A DNA stretch of 64,000 nucleotides from the sequence record OR167180; one strand, given 5' to 3'. Both the position numbers and the translations under genes were made by a program. The notes under the pieces are model-generated. The model was not told the origin of the DNA. It was given only the letters and a program-made list of their open reading frames with translations, and did no database searches. The DNA is from Escherichia phage MIZ4. Shown here piece after piece: positions 9,173 through 15,431 of this stretch (within the stretch, counting starts at the first letter, position 1; every line of letters starts with the position of its first letter).

Positions 9173-9727
9173 CTAAAAATTTTTAACACCATATTCACCA
9201 AAATAAAGATCAACCGCTTTGTCATAAGCTCTGGCCGCATCTTCTTCGTTGACATAATACCCAAGAGATATTAGTTTATCATTATTTCGTATTCTTGCAA
9301 CCCATTTCTTCGTATGTTTATGCCAGCTAACCCCTTTATACTTGCTTGCTTTATTCTTGTACTTTCCAACGTTACAAGCATTTTTCTTTGCGTCGGACTC
9401 TCTAAGATTGCGTGGTGCGTTGTTTAAAGGATTTCGGTCTATATGATCTATAATTTCTGGTTGTGTTCCATGCTCAAGAAACCATACAATACGATGTACA
9501 TATGGCTTTAAAACCCTCCCATTATCCATAACAATTGCAATTTGGAGATGATCCTGACTTTTAAAAGTTTTTACTTTATCTCCTGCCTTATAAAACTTTC
9601 CTTCGTAATTCTTTCCTCCGGCTCGGCTATTCTTTAAATGATAAAGAATACCATCGTCGTCATGTCTATATCTTTCTCGTATAATTCGTTGCGTTTCTTC
9701 ATCCCACAATTTGGAACGTCTACTCAT
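9173..9727 (-). CDS. freestanding HNH homing endonuclease with C-terminal AP2-type DNA-binding domain
   Basis: HNH motif IDHIDRNPLNN; AP2-like YKGVSWHKHTKKWVARIR..LGYY..EEDAARAYDKA; sits where T4 has a-gt. Confidence 0.75.
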   Translation of the reverse strand: MSRRSKLWDEETQRIIRERYRHDDDGILYHLKNSRAGGKNYEGKFYKAGDKVKTFKSQDHLQIAIVMDNGRVLKPYVHRIVWFLEHGTQPEIIDHIDRNPLNNAPRNLRESDAKKNACNVGKYKNKASKYKGVSWHKHTKKWVARIRNNDKLISLGYYVNEEDAARAYDKAVDLYFGEYGVKNF

Positions 9728-10340: not shown

Positions 10341-10857
10341 AAAATTGGTCCAGGCTAGGCAATTCCTCGGTCAATACATCTTCAACCTTTGGCGCTTTCG
10401 GTTTATTGACCGATTCCTCGTAGTTGTTGATTTTATCGTAAATGTCCTGTATGAATGCCTCATCAGCAATCTGGCACATATCAGCGTCGCGTTCGTCATA
10501 TACATGATGCACAAAATATTTGTATTTTGCGGCTGTCGCTGTTCTTTCTTTTTTAATGCGCTGCACAAAAGCATTAAAGCACGCTTGCGTGATGTAAGCA
10601 TGAGGATTTTTATACTTTGTCTCGTCAAAATTAATCAAACCCTTGACCGCCGCTTCGATTCCATCGTCGATCATTTCTTCGCGCCATGTTTGACTATAGC
10701 CAGAAAAGTTAAAACGCCGTGATAGATTTTTAGAGATTTGCATAATTGCCAGGCCGATTTGGTCACTCATTGGCACTTGCCGACCTTCTGCTGCAATTCG
10801 TTGTTTCCAACGGCAAATTTCTTCGTAAAGCTCTTTATTGTTTACATAATCAGACAC
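10324..10857 (-). CDS. 55: late-transcription sigma factor gp55
   Basis: [70 protein letters not shown] match T4 gp55. Confidence 0.85.
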
Positions 10858-10897
10858 TTCGCACCCTCGCTATTATTTAGGAAATAACCCTTTCGGG

Positions 10898-12367
10898 CTA
10901 TTCCCCATTACCATTATACTTTCTTTGCTTAGTTATCCACACTCTAACCATCTCTACTGATTCACCGTCAGAGGGATCAAGAGTTTTTCCTTTTTTCTTC
11001 ATGCGGTACTTAAATCCGTTAAATCTTGCATTCTCTTGCTCGTTAAAGTCGAACATCTTTTTAAATGATTTTCTCCCTTTACGCTCACCGCATTCTAGCG
11101 GAATCATTCGGTCTGTTATTACATTGGCATTAGGTAGAAACGTTTTTAGATAATCTACCAACGCCCAATCAGGAACATATAGATTAACATTCTCCTTGCT
11201 CTCGTTGTCTCTCAGGTTACAACGCAAACATAATTGAAATGCTGGTTCCAGATAATCAGACACATGACGCGCTTTCAAAAACTCATTTGTCGGGAGATCA
11301 CAACTATTAGCAAGACCTTTTAAAATATCAATCTCCCATCGTTGAGGGTTAAAGCTGAACATCACAGCAACATTTTTATGATGAATGTAAGAGTTAAGAC
11401 CATAAGATCCGTAAGGTATCCGCTCACCAATACCATTTGTACACGCTTCACGGTCCCGATTCACGGTATAAATGAAGTCATCACCACATTCATTTTTAAC
11501 CATATCAACCAGACGTTCAAAGGTATTGTTTGTTTCTGACTGGTGACGCGACCATCGTTCGGAGTCCGTCATAAGGATGATGTTAACTCTATCTGTATTT
11601 TTATACTCTTTGAAATATAGTCTGGATTCTAGCGCACTCGGAACAAAATCGCAATTTGCATAGTATCGTAGATACTTCCCACTATATGTATCAAAGAGAT
11701 TTGCACATGCTATCGTAACCTTTTTAAAGTCTCCCCACGTACCGTGTTTGTTATCGTTCAAGAAAACAATTTTCGACCCATTCTTCCGGTGGCCTTCGTT
11801 ATGTTTTACCATAACGTTGATTTTCTTCTCTAATAACGCCTCATAAAGCCCTCTAAGAGAAGAATCGATCATATCAGTACCATCCTTTGCACTTTCTATC
11901 TTTTCTTTGATAGCGGCCTTCTCAGAGTCTTTTAGAACTAAGTTCTGTAGGCATTCCGATTCGTCGGCGATTGGTTCGCAATGCTTCGTGATAAGTTCAA
12001 GATTAGACTTAAACGGATACTCATTAAATTCAACCAGTTGAGGAACTTCATCAATGTAAAGAGCATAATCACCAAACATTTTTGAACGTTCCATATTAGA
12101 TAACGCTGTATGTGTAATGAATATCACATCAGCACCATCTTTAACTGATTGCATTATCGACGCTTGCACTGTCTTAAGGCTTCTTAGTCTTGTGCTATCA
12201 ATCAAGACAGCACGACCGCCCATTCTTTTAAACTTATTGTAAGATTGTTCACTTAAAACACGAGATGGCGAAGCAATAACCGCTTTTTCTTTTGTCTCTA
12301 GGACGTGGGAAAGTATAGCATCAGTTTTCCCCGCCGCTGGCAATGCGATTAATGTTTCAATCTTCAT
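10898..12367 (-). CDS. P-loop NTPase of unknown function
   Basis: 489 aa; Walker A-like LPAAGKT near N-terminus, Walker B-like LYIDEV; no T4 counterpart recognised. Confidence 0.5.
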   Translation of the reverse strand: MKIETLIALPAAGKTDAILSHVLETKEKAVIASPSRVLSEQSYNKFKRMGGRAVLIDSTRLRSLKTVQASIMQSVKDGADVIFITHTALSNMERSKMFGDYALYIDEVPQLVEFNEYPFKSNLELITKHCEPIADESECLQNLVLKDSEKAAIKEKIESAKDGTDMIDSSLRGLYEALLEKKINVMVKHNEGHRKNGSKIVFLNDNKHGTWGDFKKVTIACANLFDTYSGKYLRYYANCDFVPSALESRLYFKEYKNTDRVNIILMTDSERWSRHQSETNNTFERLVDMVKNECGDDFIYTVNRDREACTNGIGERIPYGSYGLNSYIHHKNVAVMFSFNPQRWEIDILKGLANSCDLPTNEFLKARHVSDYLEPAFQLCLRCNLRDNESKENVNLYVPDWALVDYLKTFLPNANVITDRMIPLECGERKGRKSFKKMFDFNEQENARFNGFKYRMKKKGKTLDPSDGESVEMVRVWITKQRKYNGNGE

Positions 12368-12672
12368 TAGAAACCCTTACGTCGTGCTTTCTGGCATTTC
12401 TTGATCATTTTATCAGAAATTTCGCGCTTAGGTGCAATCTCTTTCACACCGAAAGCACTAATGCCAAATTCAGAGAGAATATATTCAACTAACAATTCAC
12501 GCACACGCGCTTTACCGATATTCACGCCGTTATTTTTCAGATATGTCTGGCCTTCGACTTGCATCAGATCTAAATCAGCGTCGGTAATATTGATTTCTTC
12601 CATGCGCCCAAATCGAGAATAAACCATGTGTGCGATTGCATTGTGTACTAACATAATATATTCCTCACTCAA
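12367..12672 (-). CDS. hypothetical protein
   Basis: 101-aa ORF whose stop overlaps the NTPase start (ATGA). Confidence 0.35.
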   Translation of the reverse strand: MSEEYIMLVHNAIAHMVYSRFGRMEEINITDADLDLMQVEGQTYLKNNGVNIGKARVRELLVEYILSEFGISAFGVKEIAPKREISDKMIKKCQKARRKGF

Positions 12673-12834
12673 GAATTACTTAATGATACTTACTTTACCA
12701 GATCCATGACAATGAGCGCAACACCCATCACCACGCAATCCTGTTCCGTTACAGTGTTTACACTTCTTCAACGGTAAAGCCATTATAGCAAATAAAGCAA
12801 TAATGAACACCGAAACTAAATTCTCAATAATCAT
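12673..12834 (-). CDS. small membrane-anchored protein with CxxCxGxG zinc-ribbon repeats (not in ORF track)
   Basis: hand translation MIIENLVSVFIIALFAIMALPLKKCKHCNGTGLRGDGCCAHCHGSGKVSIIK; fills a gap between neighbouring genes. Confidence 0.35.
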
Positions 12835-13093
12835 AAATCTCCCTCAGTTCTTTATAGCCTCCAATGTGCTCGTTGTCAATGAATATCTGGGGGTATACAA
12901 ATCGGAGGCTCTTTGAGTTCAGCCTCCCCGCCAGTTCTTCAATCATATCACGGTCGGGAATAATGTCAACCCCAACCTGCTTGAATACTGGTTTAAGTGT
13001 ATACGGAATACCCAGATCATCCAGTAGCTTCATTGCACTAATACAACCATAACAATGATAAGCCTCTTTCGGTATGCCGTATATCTCGATCAT
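12824..13093 (-). CDS. glutaredoxin-like protein (NrdH-like)
   Basis: CxxC active site CYGC; glutaredoxin fold motif VYPQIFIDNEHIGGY. Confidence 0.7.
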   Translation of the reverse strand: MIEIYGIPKEAYHCYGCISAMKLLDDLGIPYTLKPVFKQVGVDIIPDRDMIEELAGRLNSKSLRFVYPQIFIDNEHIGGYKELREIYDY

Positions 13094-13587
13094 TTCTCAG
13101 CCTTTAATCTTTCTAGTTCTTCTTCCAGTTCCTTGATCCGTTGGTCACGTTCAAAGTCACGCTGCAACTTAGTGGCGAATACTCGTTTAAACTGATTGTA
13201 ATCATCGATTTTAAACACTTCTTCTTCGCCATAGCGACGCACAGAAACTTCGTAGTTGTTGAAAAATTGTTCCAACATTGCATCAGTAGTCAGTTCTGAC
13301 GACACCACTTTAAAATAACGTTCTTCGGATTGCAAAAACCAGTTGTGCGCGTATTCCCGTACATCATCAACATCTCGACAGGTGTATGTTTTTCCATCAA
13401 TTTCAATCGCAGAAACATATTCGATATCTGATGCAATTTTTTCAAAAGCGATAACTTTAAATGTACGGTCACCGATAAAGTCTGCTATTGCATCATTTGC
13501 AACACTGGTTGCAAAGGCTTTCCGCGCTCGCTCGTTTTTCCACTGATAGGTCATACCAACAACAAACATATTACCATCAACAAACAT
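13090..13587 (-). CDS. member of paralogous repeat-domain family (1 module)
   Basis: VGMTYQWK..F, IEIDGKTYT, ERYFKVV; C-terminal coiled coil. Confidence 0.45.
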   Translation of the reverse strand: MFVDGNMFVVGMTYQWKNERARKAFATSVANDAIADFIGDRTFKVIAFEKIASDIEYVSAIEIDGKTYTCRDVDDVREYAHNWFLQSEERYFKVVSSELTTDAMLEQFFNNYEVSVRRYGEEEVFKIDDYNQFKRVFATKLQRDFERDQRIKELEEELERLKAEK

Positions 13588-13588
13588 A

Positions 13589-14413
13589 TTACCATCCTCG
13601 CTCTTTACCAATCAAAAATTCAACTTCACGACGTTTAATGTCTTCTTGAAGGTCTTTAATCTTCTGGCGATCTTGCATTATTTCGTCCATCTTGTCAAGT
13701 GCTGCGATGAAATCATCGAAACGTTCAAAGGTTTTACCTTCATTTGCTTCGCCAAATTTAACCATTGTCAGGCCGTAACGACTACTAAACAGACGTTTCA
13801 ACTGTCCAACGATTTTAGAATCAGTGGTTATAACTTCCAATTCTTCTACTTCACGAAAGAATTTTCTATCAGAATCAATAAACCAGCTAGTTCCTTTATG
13901 GTTGCTATCTTCGGTTGCACTCATTAGAGTATGGTCTTTACCATCAATTTCAATTACATCAATTTGCCCACATGGACGAACATTTTTAACAGTAAAAGGT
14001 CTATAATTTATTGCTCGTGCAATAACATAATTAAGATTAGATACGTTTTCAGCATAATGGCAGAAGTCGGTCATAGCATTCACGTCTTTCCAAGTATAAG
14101 TTTTACCAACTTCCCATTTCTGGGGAACTTCTTCAACTTCACGAAAGAATTTTCTATCGAATGGACTAAAGAAATATGTTGCAGTCCAAATGTCTTTTCC
14201 TGTAGCAGTTTTCGCCGTATGATAAACACCGTCTAGCTCTATTGCATTAATCCAACCGTTGCCATCGATCTCGATGATGGTAAATGGCTTGTCACCAATA
14301 GCTGCACTAATATCGCTGTTAAGTGGAGAAAGAACACCTTCTCCGTTAGTAATAAACTCAGTTTTAGCGTTTACATCTTTCCAAGTGTAAGTTTTACCAA
14401 TTTCCCATTTCAT
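13589..14413 (-). CDS. member of paralogous repeat-domain family (2 tandem modules)
   Basis: MKWEIGKTYTWKDVNAKTEF..DRKFFREVEE and QKWEVGKTYTWKDVNAMTDF..DRKFFREVEE inside one protein. Confidence 0.5.
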   Translation of the reverse strand: MKWEIGKTYTWKDVNAKTEFITNGEGVLSPLNSDISAAIGDKPFTIIEIDGNGWINAIELDGVYHTAKTATGKDIWTATYFFSPFDRKFFREVEEVPQKWEVGKTYTWKDVNAMTDFCHYAENVSNLNYVIARAINYRPFTVKNVRPCGQIDVIEIDGKDHTLMSATEDSNHKGTSWFIDSDRKFFREVEELEVITTDSKIVGQLKRLFSSRYGLTMVKFGEANEGKTFERFDDFIAALDKMDEIMQDRQKIKDLQEDIKRREVEFLIGKERGW

Positions 14414-14425
14414 AATATATTCCCC

Positions 14426-14890
14426 TTAACCGATTTTATCAAGTTCGTTTAATGCTTTCTCAGCTTCCTGTATAGCTTGCACCCTTTCCGGCATTTTGTC
14501 AAGAAAATCTTTCAACTCTTCAAAACTGGAGATATGACGCAAGGCATTAGCACCGATAGCCGCATGTGATTTGCATTCAAAGCGAATTTTATAATTATCC
14601 ATAGCCAATTTGAGAAGATCAATTAATTTAGATTCTTCTGGAATAATAATTTCTTCAAATCTGCTACGGTCATGATCCAGAAACCAACAAGATAGACCTA
14701 CATCGGTTGAACTCATATAAGTTCCATCATGAAGATAAACAGACCGCACGTATCCTTTTTTCGCATCAACCGACGCAACTTTAAACGGTAATCGCAGATA
14801 TTTCAAATAATCAACATCATACCATTTAAAAAATTGATTTGCATCTTTTACATCTTTCCACGCATAGGTCTTACCAGCTTCCCATTTCAT
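14426..14890 (-). CDS. member of paralogous repeat-domain family (1 module)
   Basis: MKWEAGKTYAWKDVKDANQF; HDRSRFEEI. Confidence 0.45.
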   Translation of the reverse strand: MKWEAGKTYAWKDVKDANQFFKWYDVDYLKYLRLPFKVASVDAKKGYVRSVYLHDGTYMSSTDVGLSCWFLDHDRSRFEEIIIPEESKLIDLLKLAMDNYKIRFECKSHAAIGANALRHISSFEELKDFLDKMPERVQAIQEAEKALNELDKIG

Positions 14891-14894
14891 AATA

Positions 14895-15431
14895 TCATCT
14901 CTCATTTTTGATACGTGATTCTAATTGGATCATACGGTCGCGCGTTTGTTTGTATTCTCGGATAGCACCGATCCGGCTAGGCATACCATCCAGTACGCTC
15001 TTAATACCTTCTAGGGTAGTAATTTTGGCAATGCTATTATGTAACCCCATCTTATCGATCAACTGAATGTCGTAGGCTTCCATAAGCAGACCCAGGCGTT
15101 CTAAAGTTAGGTCTTCTTCTTTTTCTTCCGAATCTGGAATCTTATGTTCAATAGTAACTTCGGTAAAGAAACGACGCTCACCCGACCAAAACCACACGCC
15201 GGAACAGCCAATAGGGGATTCTTTTAACGTCATAGAGTCGAAATTACTACCAATAATAGTAATTTCTCTAACATCACCATCATCGTCAAGGTCTTCTACC
15301 CTAAACGGGCGACCAGCCAACAAGTCAACAATACATCTGTTAATAGACGACGAAAATTTAGTCAGTTCGGCTTTCGACGCTTCGCATTCAATCTTGTAAG
15401 TTTTACCAACTTCCCATTCCATAATAATCAC
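14895..15431 (-). CDS. member of paralogous repeat-domain family (1 module)
   Basis: EWEVGKTYKIECE; GERRFFTEV. Confidence 0.45.
   Translation of the reverse strand: MIIMEWEVGKTYKIECEASKAELTKFSSSINRCIVDLLAGRPFRVEDLDDDGDVREITIIGSNFDSMTLKESPIGCSGVWFWSGERRFFTEVTIEHKIPDSEEKEEDLTLERLGLLMEAYDIQLIDKMGLHNSIAKITTLEGIKSVLDGMPSRIGAIREYKQTRDRMIQLESRIKNER

What the first reader, a model, noticed from the sequence alone, without database searches (positions are those of the whole stretch)
10898..12834. P-loop NTPase operon with no obvious T4 counterpart between gene 55 and the nrd cluster
A 489-aa protein with a Walker A-like LPAAGKT and Walker B-like LYIDEV is translationally coupled (ATGA overlap) to an upstream 101-aa ORF and preceded by a 53-aa membrane-anchored CxxCxGxG zinc-ribbon ORF that the ORF track missed. 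In T4 this interval holds only small 55.x ORFs. A large ATPase here could be a helicase, a kinase-fold enzyme, or a defence or anti-defence effector.
Basis: partly seen in the sequence, partly recalled or inferred. Interest (0 to 1): 0.6.

Follow-up and report, generated by a model that had tools for sequence, protein, structure and literature searches.

The report
DinG-like helicase paired with gp55.2
The 489-residue protein is an uncharacterised helicase-type motor, closest in predicted shape to the DNA repair helicases XPD and DinG; RB49-like and many other T4-related phages (but not T4) carry it directly behind the gene for a known inhibitor of host topoisomerase I.

Summary
The window is a Krischvirus (RB49-like) genome. 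The three minus-strand ORFs exist as described, with small corrections. The junction is TAATG, not ATGA. The small ORF is 52 aa, not 53. The "101-aa" ORF most likely starts at an ATG, giving 95 aa.

That middle ORF does have a T4 counterpart. It is a gp55.2 homolog (42% identity), and T4 gp55.2 is a published DNA-binding inhibitor of E. coli topoisomerase I.

It is a fourth helicase: RB49 also has gp41, Dda and UvsW. It occurs in 243 phage records, apparently all outside the T-even group. In 25 of 26 diverse loci it lies downstream of 55.2. The zinc-ribbon ORF is essentially Krischvirus-specific.

Bacterial relatives sit beside integrases and resolvases, and many carry a primase-like C-terminal extension.

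Most likely it is a DNA helicase working with gp55.2 in phage DNA metabolism. The role is untested, and the interest is moderate.

The parts
10898..12367 (-). 489-aa SF2 helicase with a DinG/XPD-like predicted fold (RB49p044 / RB49ORF044c; phrog_2467)
12323..12343 (-). Motif I / Walker A, LPAAGKT (residues 9-15)
   Evidence: P10, G13, K14 and T15 are invariant in 29 phage-type sequences. K14 is invariant in the 56-sequence extended family.
12044..12061 (-). Motif II / Walker B, LYIDEV(P) (residues 103-108); the DExx box reads DEVP
   Evidence: D106, E107 and P109 are invariant. D106 and E107 are invariant in the extended family.
11723..12040 (-). Insertion of about 105 residues in the first RecA domain (residues 110-215), between motif II and a motif-III-like TIACAN; this is the position of the Arch domain in XPD/DinG
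   Evidence: Secondary structure of the model shows three strands, two long helices and a hairpin. XPD/DinG hits align 316-349 residues, against 238-263 for other two-domain SF2 hits. The Arch position is taken from PMC11981726. Equivalence is inferred from position, because no residue-level superposition was available.
11210..11236 (-). Motif VI-like QLCLRCNLR (residues 378-386), with candidate arginine fingers
   Evidence: Q378, R382 and R386 are invariant in both alignments. The same Q..xR...R pattern occurs in 61 of 61 long-form relatives.
10901..11110 (-). C-terminal 70-residue basic, helical tail (residues 420-489)
   Evidence: 18 K+R against 10 D+E in the tail, while the core is net acidic. 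Helices at 443-458 and 468-486. E445 and W477 are invariant. Function unknown.
12367..12654 (-). gp55.2 homolog (95 aa from the ATG; DUF7570); its stop overlaps the helicase start by 1 nt (TAATG)
   Evidence: DUF7570 at E 1.4e-28. 42% identity to T4 gp55.2, E 7e-20. Annotated gp55.2 in RB49. T4 gp55.2 binds DNA and inhibits E. coli Topo I (PMC4396842).
12676..12834 (-). 52-aa protein with an N-terminal hydrophobic helix and one DnaJ-type zinc centre (2 x CxxCxGxG); a Krischvirus accessory, not part of the conserved module
   Evidence: Sequence. Hydropathy. phrog_3931 at 4.3e-10. DnaJ_CXXCXGXG scores only 14.6 bits against a 32.7-bit cut-off. 58 of 61 tblastn hits are at 95% identity or more. 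Found in only 2 of 26 helicase loci.
10878..10907 (-). 13-bp RNA hairpin with a GAAA loop that contains the helicase UAG stop codon, just upstream of the gene 55 Shine-Dalgarno sequence
   Evidence: MFE of the 71-nt stretch is -21.1 kcal/mol, z -2.84, with 2 of 200 shuffles folding as well. There is no U-tract, so it is not a canonical terminator.
12942..12969 (-). Sigma-70-like promoter candidate (TTGACA, 16 nt, TG-a-TATGAT) inside nrdH, upstream of the three ORFs
   Evidence: 11 of 12 matches plus an extended -10. This is a consensus match only. The RB49 record annotates no promoter here.

Best explanation
The 489-aa protein is an ATP-driven nucleic-acid motor of helicase superfamily 2. Its predicted architecture is that of the XPD/DinG (Rad3-like) DNA helicases in a stripped-down form: two RecA-like motor domains, a compact insertion at the Arch position, no iron-sulfur domain, and a short basic C-terminal tail. 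[quoted passage not shown]

The most likely mechanism, by analogy with DinG/XPD, is that the protein loads on single-stranded DNA and translocates 5' to 3'. It would unwind or remodel DNA structures that arise in underwound phage DNA, such as R-loops, D-loops and fork-like intermediates. It would do this in concert with gp55.2, as an auxiliary fourth helicase for phage replication and recombination.

Shown here: the gene is real and conserved, the ATPase motifs are intact, the predicted fold is as described, and the linkage to 55.2 is conserved. Inferred: DNA (rather than RNA) as substrate, polarity, any physical or functional partnership with gp55.2, and the structures acted upon.
For: 1. Identity as an SF2 motor. 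GKT, DE(VP) and QxxxRxxxR are invariant in 29 phage-type sequences and in a 56-member extended alignment. The profile finds 1,322 cluster representatives at E<=1e-3. Pfam DEAD scores above its cut-off.

4. Linkage to 55.2. In 25 of 26 T4-type loci from several genera, a 55.2 homolog lies upstream on the same strand. In 18 of them it abuts or overlaps the helicase start. In Pseudotevenvirus (RB16) the pair stays together although gene 55 is no longer the neighbour.

5. gp55.2 biochemistry comes from PMC4396842.

6. DNA-metabolism context. The gene sits between nrd genes, gene 55 and genes 46/47. In the Aeromonas phage 25 group a phrog_768 'DprA-like recombination mediator' ORF overlaps the helicase start. 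Many bacterial relatives carry a C-terminal extension with a primase-like motif pattern.

7. It does not replace another helicase. RB49 keeps gp41, Dda, UvsW and UvsW.1.
Against: - No experiment addresses this protein, and no paper on it was found beyond a 2006 table entry.
- DinG/XPD similarity is at the fold level only. TM-scores are about 0.45-0.50. hhalign of the family profile against E. coli DinG aligns only motifs I-Ia, at probability 12%. PDB sequence searches find nothing.
- Polarity and substrate therefore rest on analogy. Some Fe-S-less DinG-like proteins lack helicase activity (S. aureus ExoDinG).
- Linkage with 55.2 could be inherited gene order rather than function. 55.2 exists without the helicase in about 850 phage records, including T4. 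In 7 of 26 loci other small genes lie between the two.
- The 'DprA-like' label is not confirmed by Pfam or by a PDB sequence search.
Confidence: 0.55

Rival explanations
1. Anti-defence factor, or a defence or exclusion factor. The helicase-like motor would protect phage DNA from a host immune system, or attack competing phages or mobile elements, rather than serve replication.
Against: No credible PADLOC match for the phage protein; the one hit (E 0.0089) covers 60 residues. Ten relatives give only weak Walker-A-region hits. In the bacterial loci the relatives sit next to the integrase, AlpA or resolvase, as backbone genes do, not among the cargo. The phage gene holds a fixed syntenic position across genera at 31-49% identity with all motifs intact, which is unlike typical fast-turnover anti-defence genes. 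No nuclease or other effector domain is present.
Confidence: 0.15
2. RNA helicase acting on phage mRNA or in late transcription, functionally tied to the neighbouring late sigma factor gp55.
For: The only Pfam family above cut-off is DEAD/DEAH. Gene 55 is the immediate downstream neighbour in 19 of 26 loci. Nearby paralogous ORFs have weak similarity to goF-type mRNA-metabolism PHROGs.
Confidence: 0.1
3. Captured replication helicase of a mobile element. The gene descends from the helicase(-primase) of integrative islands or plasmids, and in the phage acts as an alternative initiator or primosome component, or merely persists, independently of gp55.2.
For: A relative at 250 bits (E 2.7e-69; P0053) lies between a resolvase, a TIR-domain gene and an integrase. 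About 800-aa relatives add a C-terminal extension whose consensus (LDxDGG ... RYRxxIP ... GxDxSK..FYLPC ... GxGN..FF.L) resembles AEP primase plus PriCT. Weak tool support comes from phrog_9765 'DNA primase' at 2.3e-5 and PriCT_1 at E 0.19. 20 of 48 alphaproteobacterial loci have a resolvase or integrase within 6 kb.
Against: The phage clade lacks the extension and has its own conserved basic tail. These phages already have a full gp41/gp61/gp59-type replisome. The primase assignment is weak: no PDB or Pfam hit reaches significance. Ancestry does not fix the present function.
Confidence: 0.15
4. Not a helicase at all, but a kinase-fold or other P-loop NTPase.
For: None beyond the presence of a Walker A motif.
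Against: The model has two RecA-like domains. The full SF2 motif set is present, and all structural neighbours are SF2 (or SF1) helicases and translocases.
Confidence: 0.02

Closest known systems
XPD / Rad3 / DinG family of SF2 5'-3' DNA helicases (e.g. Sulfolobus XPD 3CRV, Finegoldia DinG 9KQH, E. coli DinG 6FWR)
   Different: No Fe-S or pseudo-Fe-S domain: about 25 residues with one helix at that position, and only C130 and C380 are invariant. The insertion is much smaller. The protein is 489 aa, against 550-740 aa. No sequence-profile relationship beyond motifs I-Ia. Polarity and activity are untested.
Fe-S-less DinG-like proteins with a reduced Arch: type IV CRISPR CasDinG (Csf4), Hna, and sDinG of the DinG-like classification (PMC11981726, PMC13381803)
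   Different: CasDinG keeps a pseudo-Fe-S domain and acts with a CRISPR effector. [quoted passage not shown] Neither the phage-family profile nor a long-form-relative profile hits Hna or CasDinG chains in the PDB sequence search, and the phage protein matches neither in PADLOC.
T4 helicases Dda (SF1B), UvsW (SF2) and gp41 (DnaB-like)
   Different: RB49 has its own dda, uvsW, uvsW.1 and gene 41, so this is an additional enzyme, not an ortholog or a replacement. T4 has the unrelated 87-aa gp55.1 at this position.
T4 gp55.2 (for the upstream ORF)
   Same: 42% identity over 96 aligned positions, nearly the whole 95-aa ORF. Same Pfam family, DUF7570. Same position upstream of gene 55.
   Different: In T4, 55.2 is followed by 55.1, not by a helicase. 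Inhibition of Topo I has been shown only for the T4 protein (PMC4396842).

Membership tests
Helicase superfamily 2 (SF2) | Two tandem RecA-like domains | tested here: met
   AF2 model with pLDDT 87.9. All strong structural neighbours are two-domain SF2 motors.
Helicase superfamily 2 (SF2) | Motif I (GKT), motif II (DExx) and motif VI arginines conserved | tested here: met
   K14, D106, E107, Q378, R382 and R386 are invariant in A1 and A2.
Helicase superfamily 2 (SF2) | Nucleic-acid-stimulated ATPase and translocation or unwinding | not testable with these tools
   Needs biochemistry.
XPD/Rad3/DinG-like helicases | Closest overall fold | tested here: met
XPD/Rad3/DinG-like helicases | Fe-S (four Cys) or pseudo-Fe-S domain inserted in motor domain 1 between beta3 and beta4 | tested here: not met
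   Only about 25 residues with one helix lie between the strands at about 53-57 and 81-85. No conserved Cys there; the invariant Cys are C130 and C380 only.
XPD/Rad3/DinG-like helicases | Arch domain inserted in motor domain 1 after motif II | tested here: inconclusive
   A 105-residue insertion is at the right position, and XPD/DinG hits align 60-110 more residues than other SF2 hits. No residue-level superposition was available.
XPD/Rad3/DinG-like helicases | Sequence-profile membership (Pfam DEAD_2 / Helicase_C_2, NCBIfam DinG models, PDB sequences) | tested here: not met
   No such hits at E<=1. None in PDB. hhalign against E. coli DinG gives probability 12%, motifs I-Ia only.
XPD/Rad3/DinG-like helicases | 5'-3' translocation on ssDNA | not testable with these tools
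   Needs polarity assays.
DEAD-box RNA helicases (Pfam PF00270) | Score above the gathering threshold, plus a Q motif and a DEAD box | tested here: inconclusive
   27.3 bits against a 26-bit cut-off, covering residues 11-130 only. The box is DEVP, and the protein starts 8 residues before motif I, so no Q motif is possible. DEAD-box structures rank below XPD/DinG.
Known anti-phage defence proteins (PADLOC-DB 2.0) | Significant match to a defence-system model | tested here: not met
   One hit at E 0.0089 over 60 residues. Relatives give only weak Walker-A-region hits to typeIV_DinG, Cas3 and PbeA.
gp55.2 / DUF7570 (upstream ORF) | Pfam DUF7570 above cut-off, and homology to T4 gp55.2 | tested here: met
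   99.2 bits against a 27-bit cut-off. 42% identity, E 7e-20.
gp55.2 / DUF7570 (upstream ORF) | DNA binding and inhibition of topoisomerase I | not testable with these tools
   Shown only for the T4 protein (PMC4396842).
DnaJ-type CxxCxGxG zinc finger (52-aa ORF) | Paired CxxCxGxG repeats forming a zinc centre; Pfam PF00684 above cut-off | tested here: inconclusive
   Two exact repeats are present in the sequence. PF00684 scores 14.6 bits against a 32.7-bit cut-off, and the NCBIfam DnaJ models score far below their cut-offs.

The most novel reading that the evidence does not exclude
gp55.2 and the helicase are two halves of one conserved machine that manipulates DNA topology. gp55.2 keeps phage or host DNA underwound by blocking Topo I and marks single-stranded or R-loop regions. 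The DinG-like motor is loaded there to create, use or clear R-loops and D-loops for replication initiation. On this reading, T4's well-studied but puzzling 'ORFan' gp55.2 is the orphaned remnant of a two-gene module that most other T4-type lineages still carry. The wider family (helicase alone, or helicase fused to a primase-like domain next to integrases and resolvases) would be an undescribed class of replication proteins of mobile elements.
Probability: 0.2. Interest if true: 0.65.

Novelty: new variant of a known kind. Interest (0 to 1): 0.4.

Why it matters
T4-type phages are the reference system for replication and recombination enzymology. Even so, a fourth, well-conserved helicase present in many non-T-even genera has never been studied.

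Its near-obligatory position behind 55.2 offers a concrete and testable context for gp55.2, a topoisomerase I inhibitor whose physiological role in T4 is still vague. It suggests that the T-even lineage lost the partner.

The family also connects to more than a thousand unannotated bacterial and metagenomic proteins. These sit next to integrases and resolvases, and some are fused to a primase-like domain. Characterising one member would therefore annotate a large set of mobile-element genes.

The finding is not a new kind of system, and nothing here points to an unusual mechanism.

Tried and rejected
- Sequence searches of the 489-aa protein and of the family profile against PDB gave nothing significant. 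NCBIfam gave nothing. PADLOC gave only one weak hit, at E 0.0089.
- A profile of 15 long-form relatives against PDB found only generic SF2 N-terminal-domain hits (Mfd, reverse gyrase, RecG, PriA) and no Hna. The idea that the long forms are Hna-type helicase-nucleases was dropped.
- hhalign of the family against E. coli DinG aligned motifs I-Ia only.
- T4 gp55.1 as a degraded remnant of the helicase was rejected (hhalign probability 0.4%).
- The helicase as a replacement for a missing Dda or UvsW was rejected, because RB49 has both.
- The second word-indexed homolog search, with a divergent alignment, returned the same set and no names.
- A genome scan with the 56-sequence alignment failed for lack of a conserved stretch. 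It was redone with a narrower alignment, which reaches only one alphaproteobacterial subclade.
- The AFDB50 fold library was unavailable.
- The C-terminal extension of long-form relatives gave no PDB or Pfam hit of significance, so the primase reading rests on motif pattern and one weak PHROG hit.
- The RefSeq/PHROG 'DprA-like' label of the Aeromonas-phage neighbour could not be confirmed by Pfam or by a PDB sequence search.
- No late-promoter TATAAATA lies in or near the locus.
- Literature searches for this gene found only a 2006 table entry.
Full report
**Where the window comes from.** Bases 10800-13100 are 100% identical to Escherichia phage MIZ5 and 99.3% identical to phage RB49, and they match 58 Krischvirus records in all. 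The RB49 record gives the local gene order on the minus strand: gene 47, an HNH/AP2 endonuclease, a-gt.4, a-gt.5, gene 55, RB49p044 (the 489-aa ORF), RB49p045 (annotated gp55.2), RB49p046 (the small ORF), then nrdH, four hypothetical genes and nrdG.

**Check of the observation.** The ORF list shows 10898-12367 (489 aa), 12367-12672 (101 aa from a TTG) and 12676-12834 (52 aa), all on the minus strand.
- LPAAGKT is residues 9-15 and LYIDEV is residues 103-108 of the large protein.
- The junction between the middle ORF and the large ORF reads TAATG. The stop and start share one base, which is not an ATGA overlap.
- The middle ORF most likely starts at the ATG at 12654, which follows a GAGG. This gives 95 aa, as annotated in RB49.
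- The small ORF has a strong Shine-Dalgarno sequence (GAGGGAG) and overlaps the end of nrdH by 11 nt.
- Its first 22 residues are strongly hydrophobic (Kyte-Doolittle mean 2.8 over residues 6-22), and it carries CKHCNGTG and CAHCHGSG.
- T4 has only 55.1 to 55.6 between gene 55 and nrdH.

The description therefore holds apart from these details and one omission: the middle ORF is a plain homolog of T4 gp55.2 (Pfam DUF7570 at E 1.4e-28; 42% identity over nearly the full length, E 7e-20). T4 gp55.2 has been characterised. [quoted passage not shown]

**What the 489-aa protein is.**
- Family searches give little. PHROG phrog_2467 matches at E 2.9e-175 but has unknown function. Pfam DEAD scores 27.3 bits against a 26-bit cut-off over residues 11-130. 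NCBIfam gives nothing, and PADLOC gives a single weak hit (E 0.0089 over 60 residues). PDB sequence searches with the protein or its family profile give nothing.
- An alignment of 29 homologs at 32-74% identity shows the SF2 motif set: PAAGKT (I), IASxSRxLSxQS (Ia), VIFITHxAL (Ib), LYIDEVP (II), TIAxAN, FIYTxN, HGLN and FQLCxRxNIR (VI-like), followed by an invariant VPD.
- A profile search of 1.84 billion cluster representatives finds 1,322 proteins at E<=1e-3 and 756 at E<=1e-10.
- In a 56-sequence alignment that reaches 18-28% identity, K14, D106, E107, G323, N325, Q378, R382 and R386 remain invariant. The catalytic apparatus of an ATPase is therefore under selection across the whole family.

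**Predicted structure.** AlphaFold2 with the 29-sequence alignment gives mean pLDDT 87.9 and pTM 0.76.
- Foldseek against PDB independently puts XPD, CasDinG, DinG and Rad3 in the first 13 places, at TM-scores of about 0.41-0.50.
- The model has about 105 residues (110-215) inserted between motif II and the TIACAN strand. This is where the Arch domain sits in XPD/DinG (domain positions from PMC11981726).
- At the position of the Fe-S domain there are only about 25 residues with one helix. The only invariant cysteines are C130 and C380, so a 4Fe-4S cluster is excluded.
- The last 70 residues are basic and helical.
- The relationship is at the fold level only. hhalign of the extended family against E. 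coli DinG aligns motifs I-Ia at probability 12%.

**Distribution and synteny.**
- tblastn finds the protein in 243 phage records. About 58 are Krischvirus, at 95% identity or more. The rest are below 60% identity and include Pseudotevenvirus (RB16, RB43, Miller, Lw1), Aeromonas phages (25, 65, PX29 and relatives), and phages of Proteus, Morganella, Serratia, Erwinia, Cronobacter, Enterobacter and Klebsiella. There are remote hits in Agrobacterium phage Atu_ph07 and a Pseudoalteromonas phage.
- By contrast, 55.2 is found in 1,092 records, including T4, T2 and T6. The T-even group therefore has 55.2 without the helicase.
- RB49 also encodes gp41, Dda, UvsX, UvsW and UvsW.1. This makes the protein an additional, fourth helicase rather than a substitute.
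- T4's occupant of the slot, gp55.1, is unrelated.
- In 26 IMG/VR loci carrying the helicase, a 55.2 homolog lies upstream on the same strand in 25. It abuts or overlaps the helicase start in 18, and one to four small genes intervene in 7.
- Gene 55 follows the helicase in 19 of the 26 loci. In the seven Pseudotevenvirus-type loci a tail-fibre gene follows instead, yet 55.2 and the helicase stay fused with a 4-nt overlap.
- In the Aeromonas phage 25 group, an ORF of phrog_768 ('DprA-like recombination mediator') overlaps the helicase start. Pfam and a PDB sequence search do not confirm that label.
- The 52-aa zinc-ribbon ORF occurs in only 2 of the 26 loci. Among isolated phages it is essentially confined to Krischvirus. 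It is a lineage-specific accessory, not part of the conserved pair.

**The wider family.** The representatives fall into forms of about 480-550 aa and forms of about 750-890 aa.
- Contexts recovered for eight non-T4 relatives:
  - P0075: a resolvase plus a type I restriction-modification system.
  - P0053: a resolvase, a TIR-domain protein and an integrase.
  - P0061: an integrase.
  - P0084: a resolvase.
  - P0064: an integrase upstream, with a resolvase, Kiwa genes and a methylase nearby.
  - P0091: an AlpA gene, then the helicase, then an integrase, with GmrSD and restriction genes nearby.
  - P0067 and P0051: phage-like contigs.
- A genome scan with one subclade's motif found 48 loci, all in Alphaproteobacteria. 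Of these, 20 have a serine resolvase or a tyrosine integrase within 6 kb by a simple phmmer test.
- The extra 350 residues of the long forms have a consensus of LDxDGG, NTxS......RYRxxIP, GxDxSK...FYLPC and GxGNxxFFxLxxxLxxAG. From my own knowledge this resembles an AEP-type primase followed by a PriCT helix. Tool support is weak: phrog_9765 'DNA primase' at 2.3e-5 for one member, PriCT_1 at E 0.19, and no PDB hit.
- These relatives look like backbone (replication) genes of integrative or plasmid-like elements rather than defence cargo. That remains an inference.

**Transcription signals.**
- No late promoter TATAAATA lies near the locus.
- A good sigma-70-type match (TTGACA, 16 nt, TG-a-TATGAT) lies inside nrdH at 12969-12942 on the coding strand. 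The RB49 record annotates other early promoters but none here.
- A 13-bp hairpin with a GAAA loop at 10878-10907 contains the helicase stop codon. The 71-nt stretch containing it folds at -21.1 kcal/mol (z -2.84), and there is no U-tract.

**Interpretation.** The evidence establishes a conserved, motif-intact SF2 motor of XPD/DinG-like architecture that travels with gp55.2. The best reading is a DNA helicase or translocase serving phage DNA metabolism together with gp55.2. A DNA-binding Topo I inhibitor would leave DNA underwound and prone to single-stranded and R-loop structures. These are the substrates of E. coli DinG, and R-loops are used by T4-type replication origins (established knowledge). 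The polarity, the substrate and the partnership are inferences. The rivals are anti-defence or exclusion, an RNA helicase tied to late transcription, and a captured mobile-element replication helicase acting on its own. None is excluded, but each has less support.

**Prior knowledge.** The ORF was listed in 2006 as RB49ORF044c with a Pfam DEAD match at E 0.069, and the small ORF as RB49ORF046c (PMC1524935). One GenBank record calls the large ORF a 'putative helicase' and another a 'DNA primase'. No functional study was found.

**Verdict.** This is a real and previously noticed gene, here placed more precisely as a short DinG/XPD-like helicase without an Fe-S domain and with a conserved gp55.2 partner. 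It is a new variant of a known kind, of moderate interest.

Noticed in passing
window 13090-15431 (-): Four adjacent ORFs between nrdH and nrdG (13090-13611, 13589-14413, 14426-14905, 14895-15431) all belong to phrog_5347. They share an N-terminal 'W-E-x-GKTY-W-K-D' module, and the 274-aa ORF contains it twice. They give weak hits to goF-type 'mRNA metabolism modulator' PHROGs and no significant Pfam hit. This looks like a locally expanded paralog family of unknown function.
   Followed up: partly
window 10878-10907 (-): A perfect 13-bp hairpin with a GAAA tetraloop encloses the helicase UAG stop codon, about 10 nt upstream of the Shine-Dalgarno sequence of gene 55 (which starts with GTG). The 71-nt stretch containing it folds at -21.1 kcal/mol, z -2.84. 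There is no U-tract. It could be a processing or stability element, or a weak attenuator between the helicase and gene 55.
   Followed up: partly
window 12942-12969 (-): A near-consensus sigma-70 promoter with an extended -10 (TTGACA, 16 nt, TG-a-TATGAT) lies inside the nrdH coding sequence and points at the zinc-ribbon ORF, 55.2 and the helicase. It is not annotated in RB49, although other early promoters are.
   Followed up: no
window 12676-12834 (-): A 52-aa membrane-anchored protein with a single DnaJ-type zinc centre. Among isolated phages it is essentially restricted to Krischvirus. It gives weak similarities to anti-TRAP (RtpA), to the Gad1 C-terminus and to phrog_3931. Function unknown.
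   Followed up: partly
window 9173-9727 (-): An HNH/AP2-domain homing-endonuclease-like gene sits between gene 47 and a-gt.4 (RB49p040). T4 has alpha-glucosyltransferase and mobB in this interval instead.
   Followed up: no
loci L008, L013, L015, L047-L094 (bacterial relatives): Relatives of about 800 aa carry a conserved C-terminal extension of about 350 aa with a primase-like (AEP plus PriCT) motif pattern and no Pfam family. They often sit immediately next to a serine resolvase or a tyrosine integrase. This may be an undescribed helicase-primase of integrative or plasmid-like elements.
   Followed up: partly
L005 2929-3504 (Aeromonas phage 25) and equivalents in L029-L031, L044: In the Aeromonas phage 25/44RR group, a 191-aa ORF labelled 'DprA-like DNA recombination-mediator' (phrog_768, E 6e-66) is inserted between 55.2 and the helicase and overlaps the helicase start by 4 nt. 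Pfam and a PDB sequence search do not confirm the DprA assignment.
   Followed up: partly
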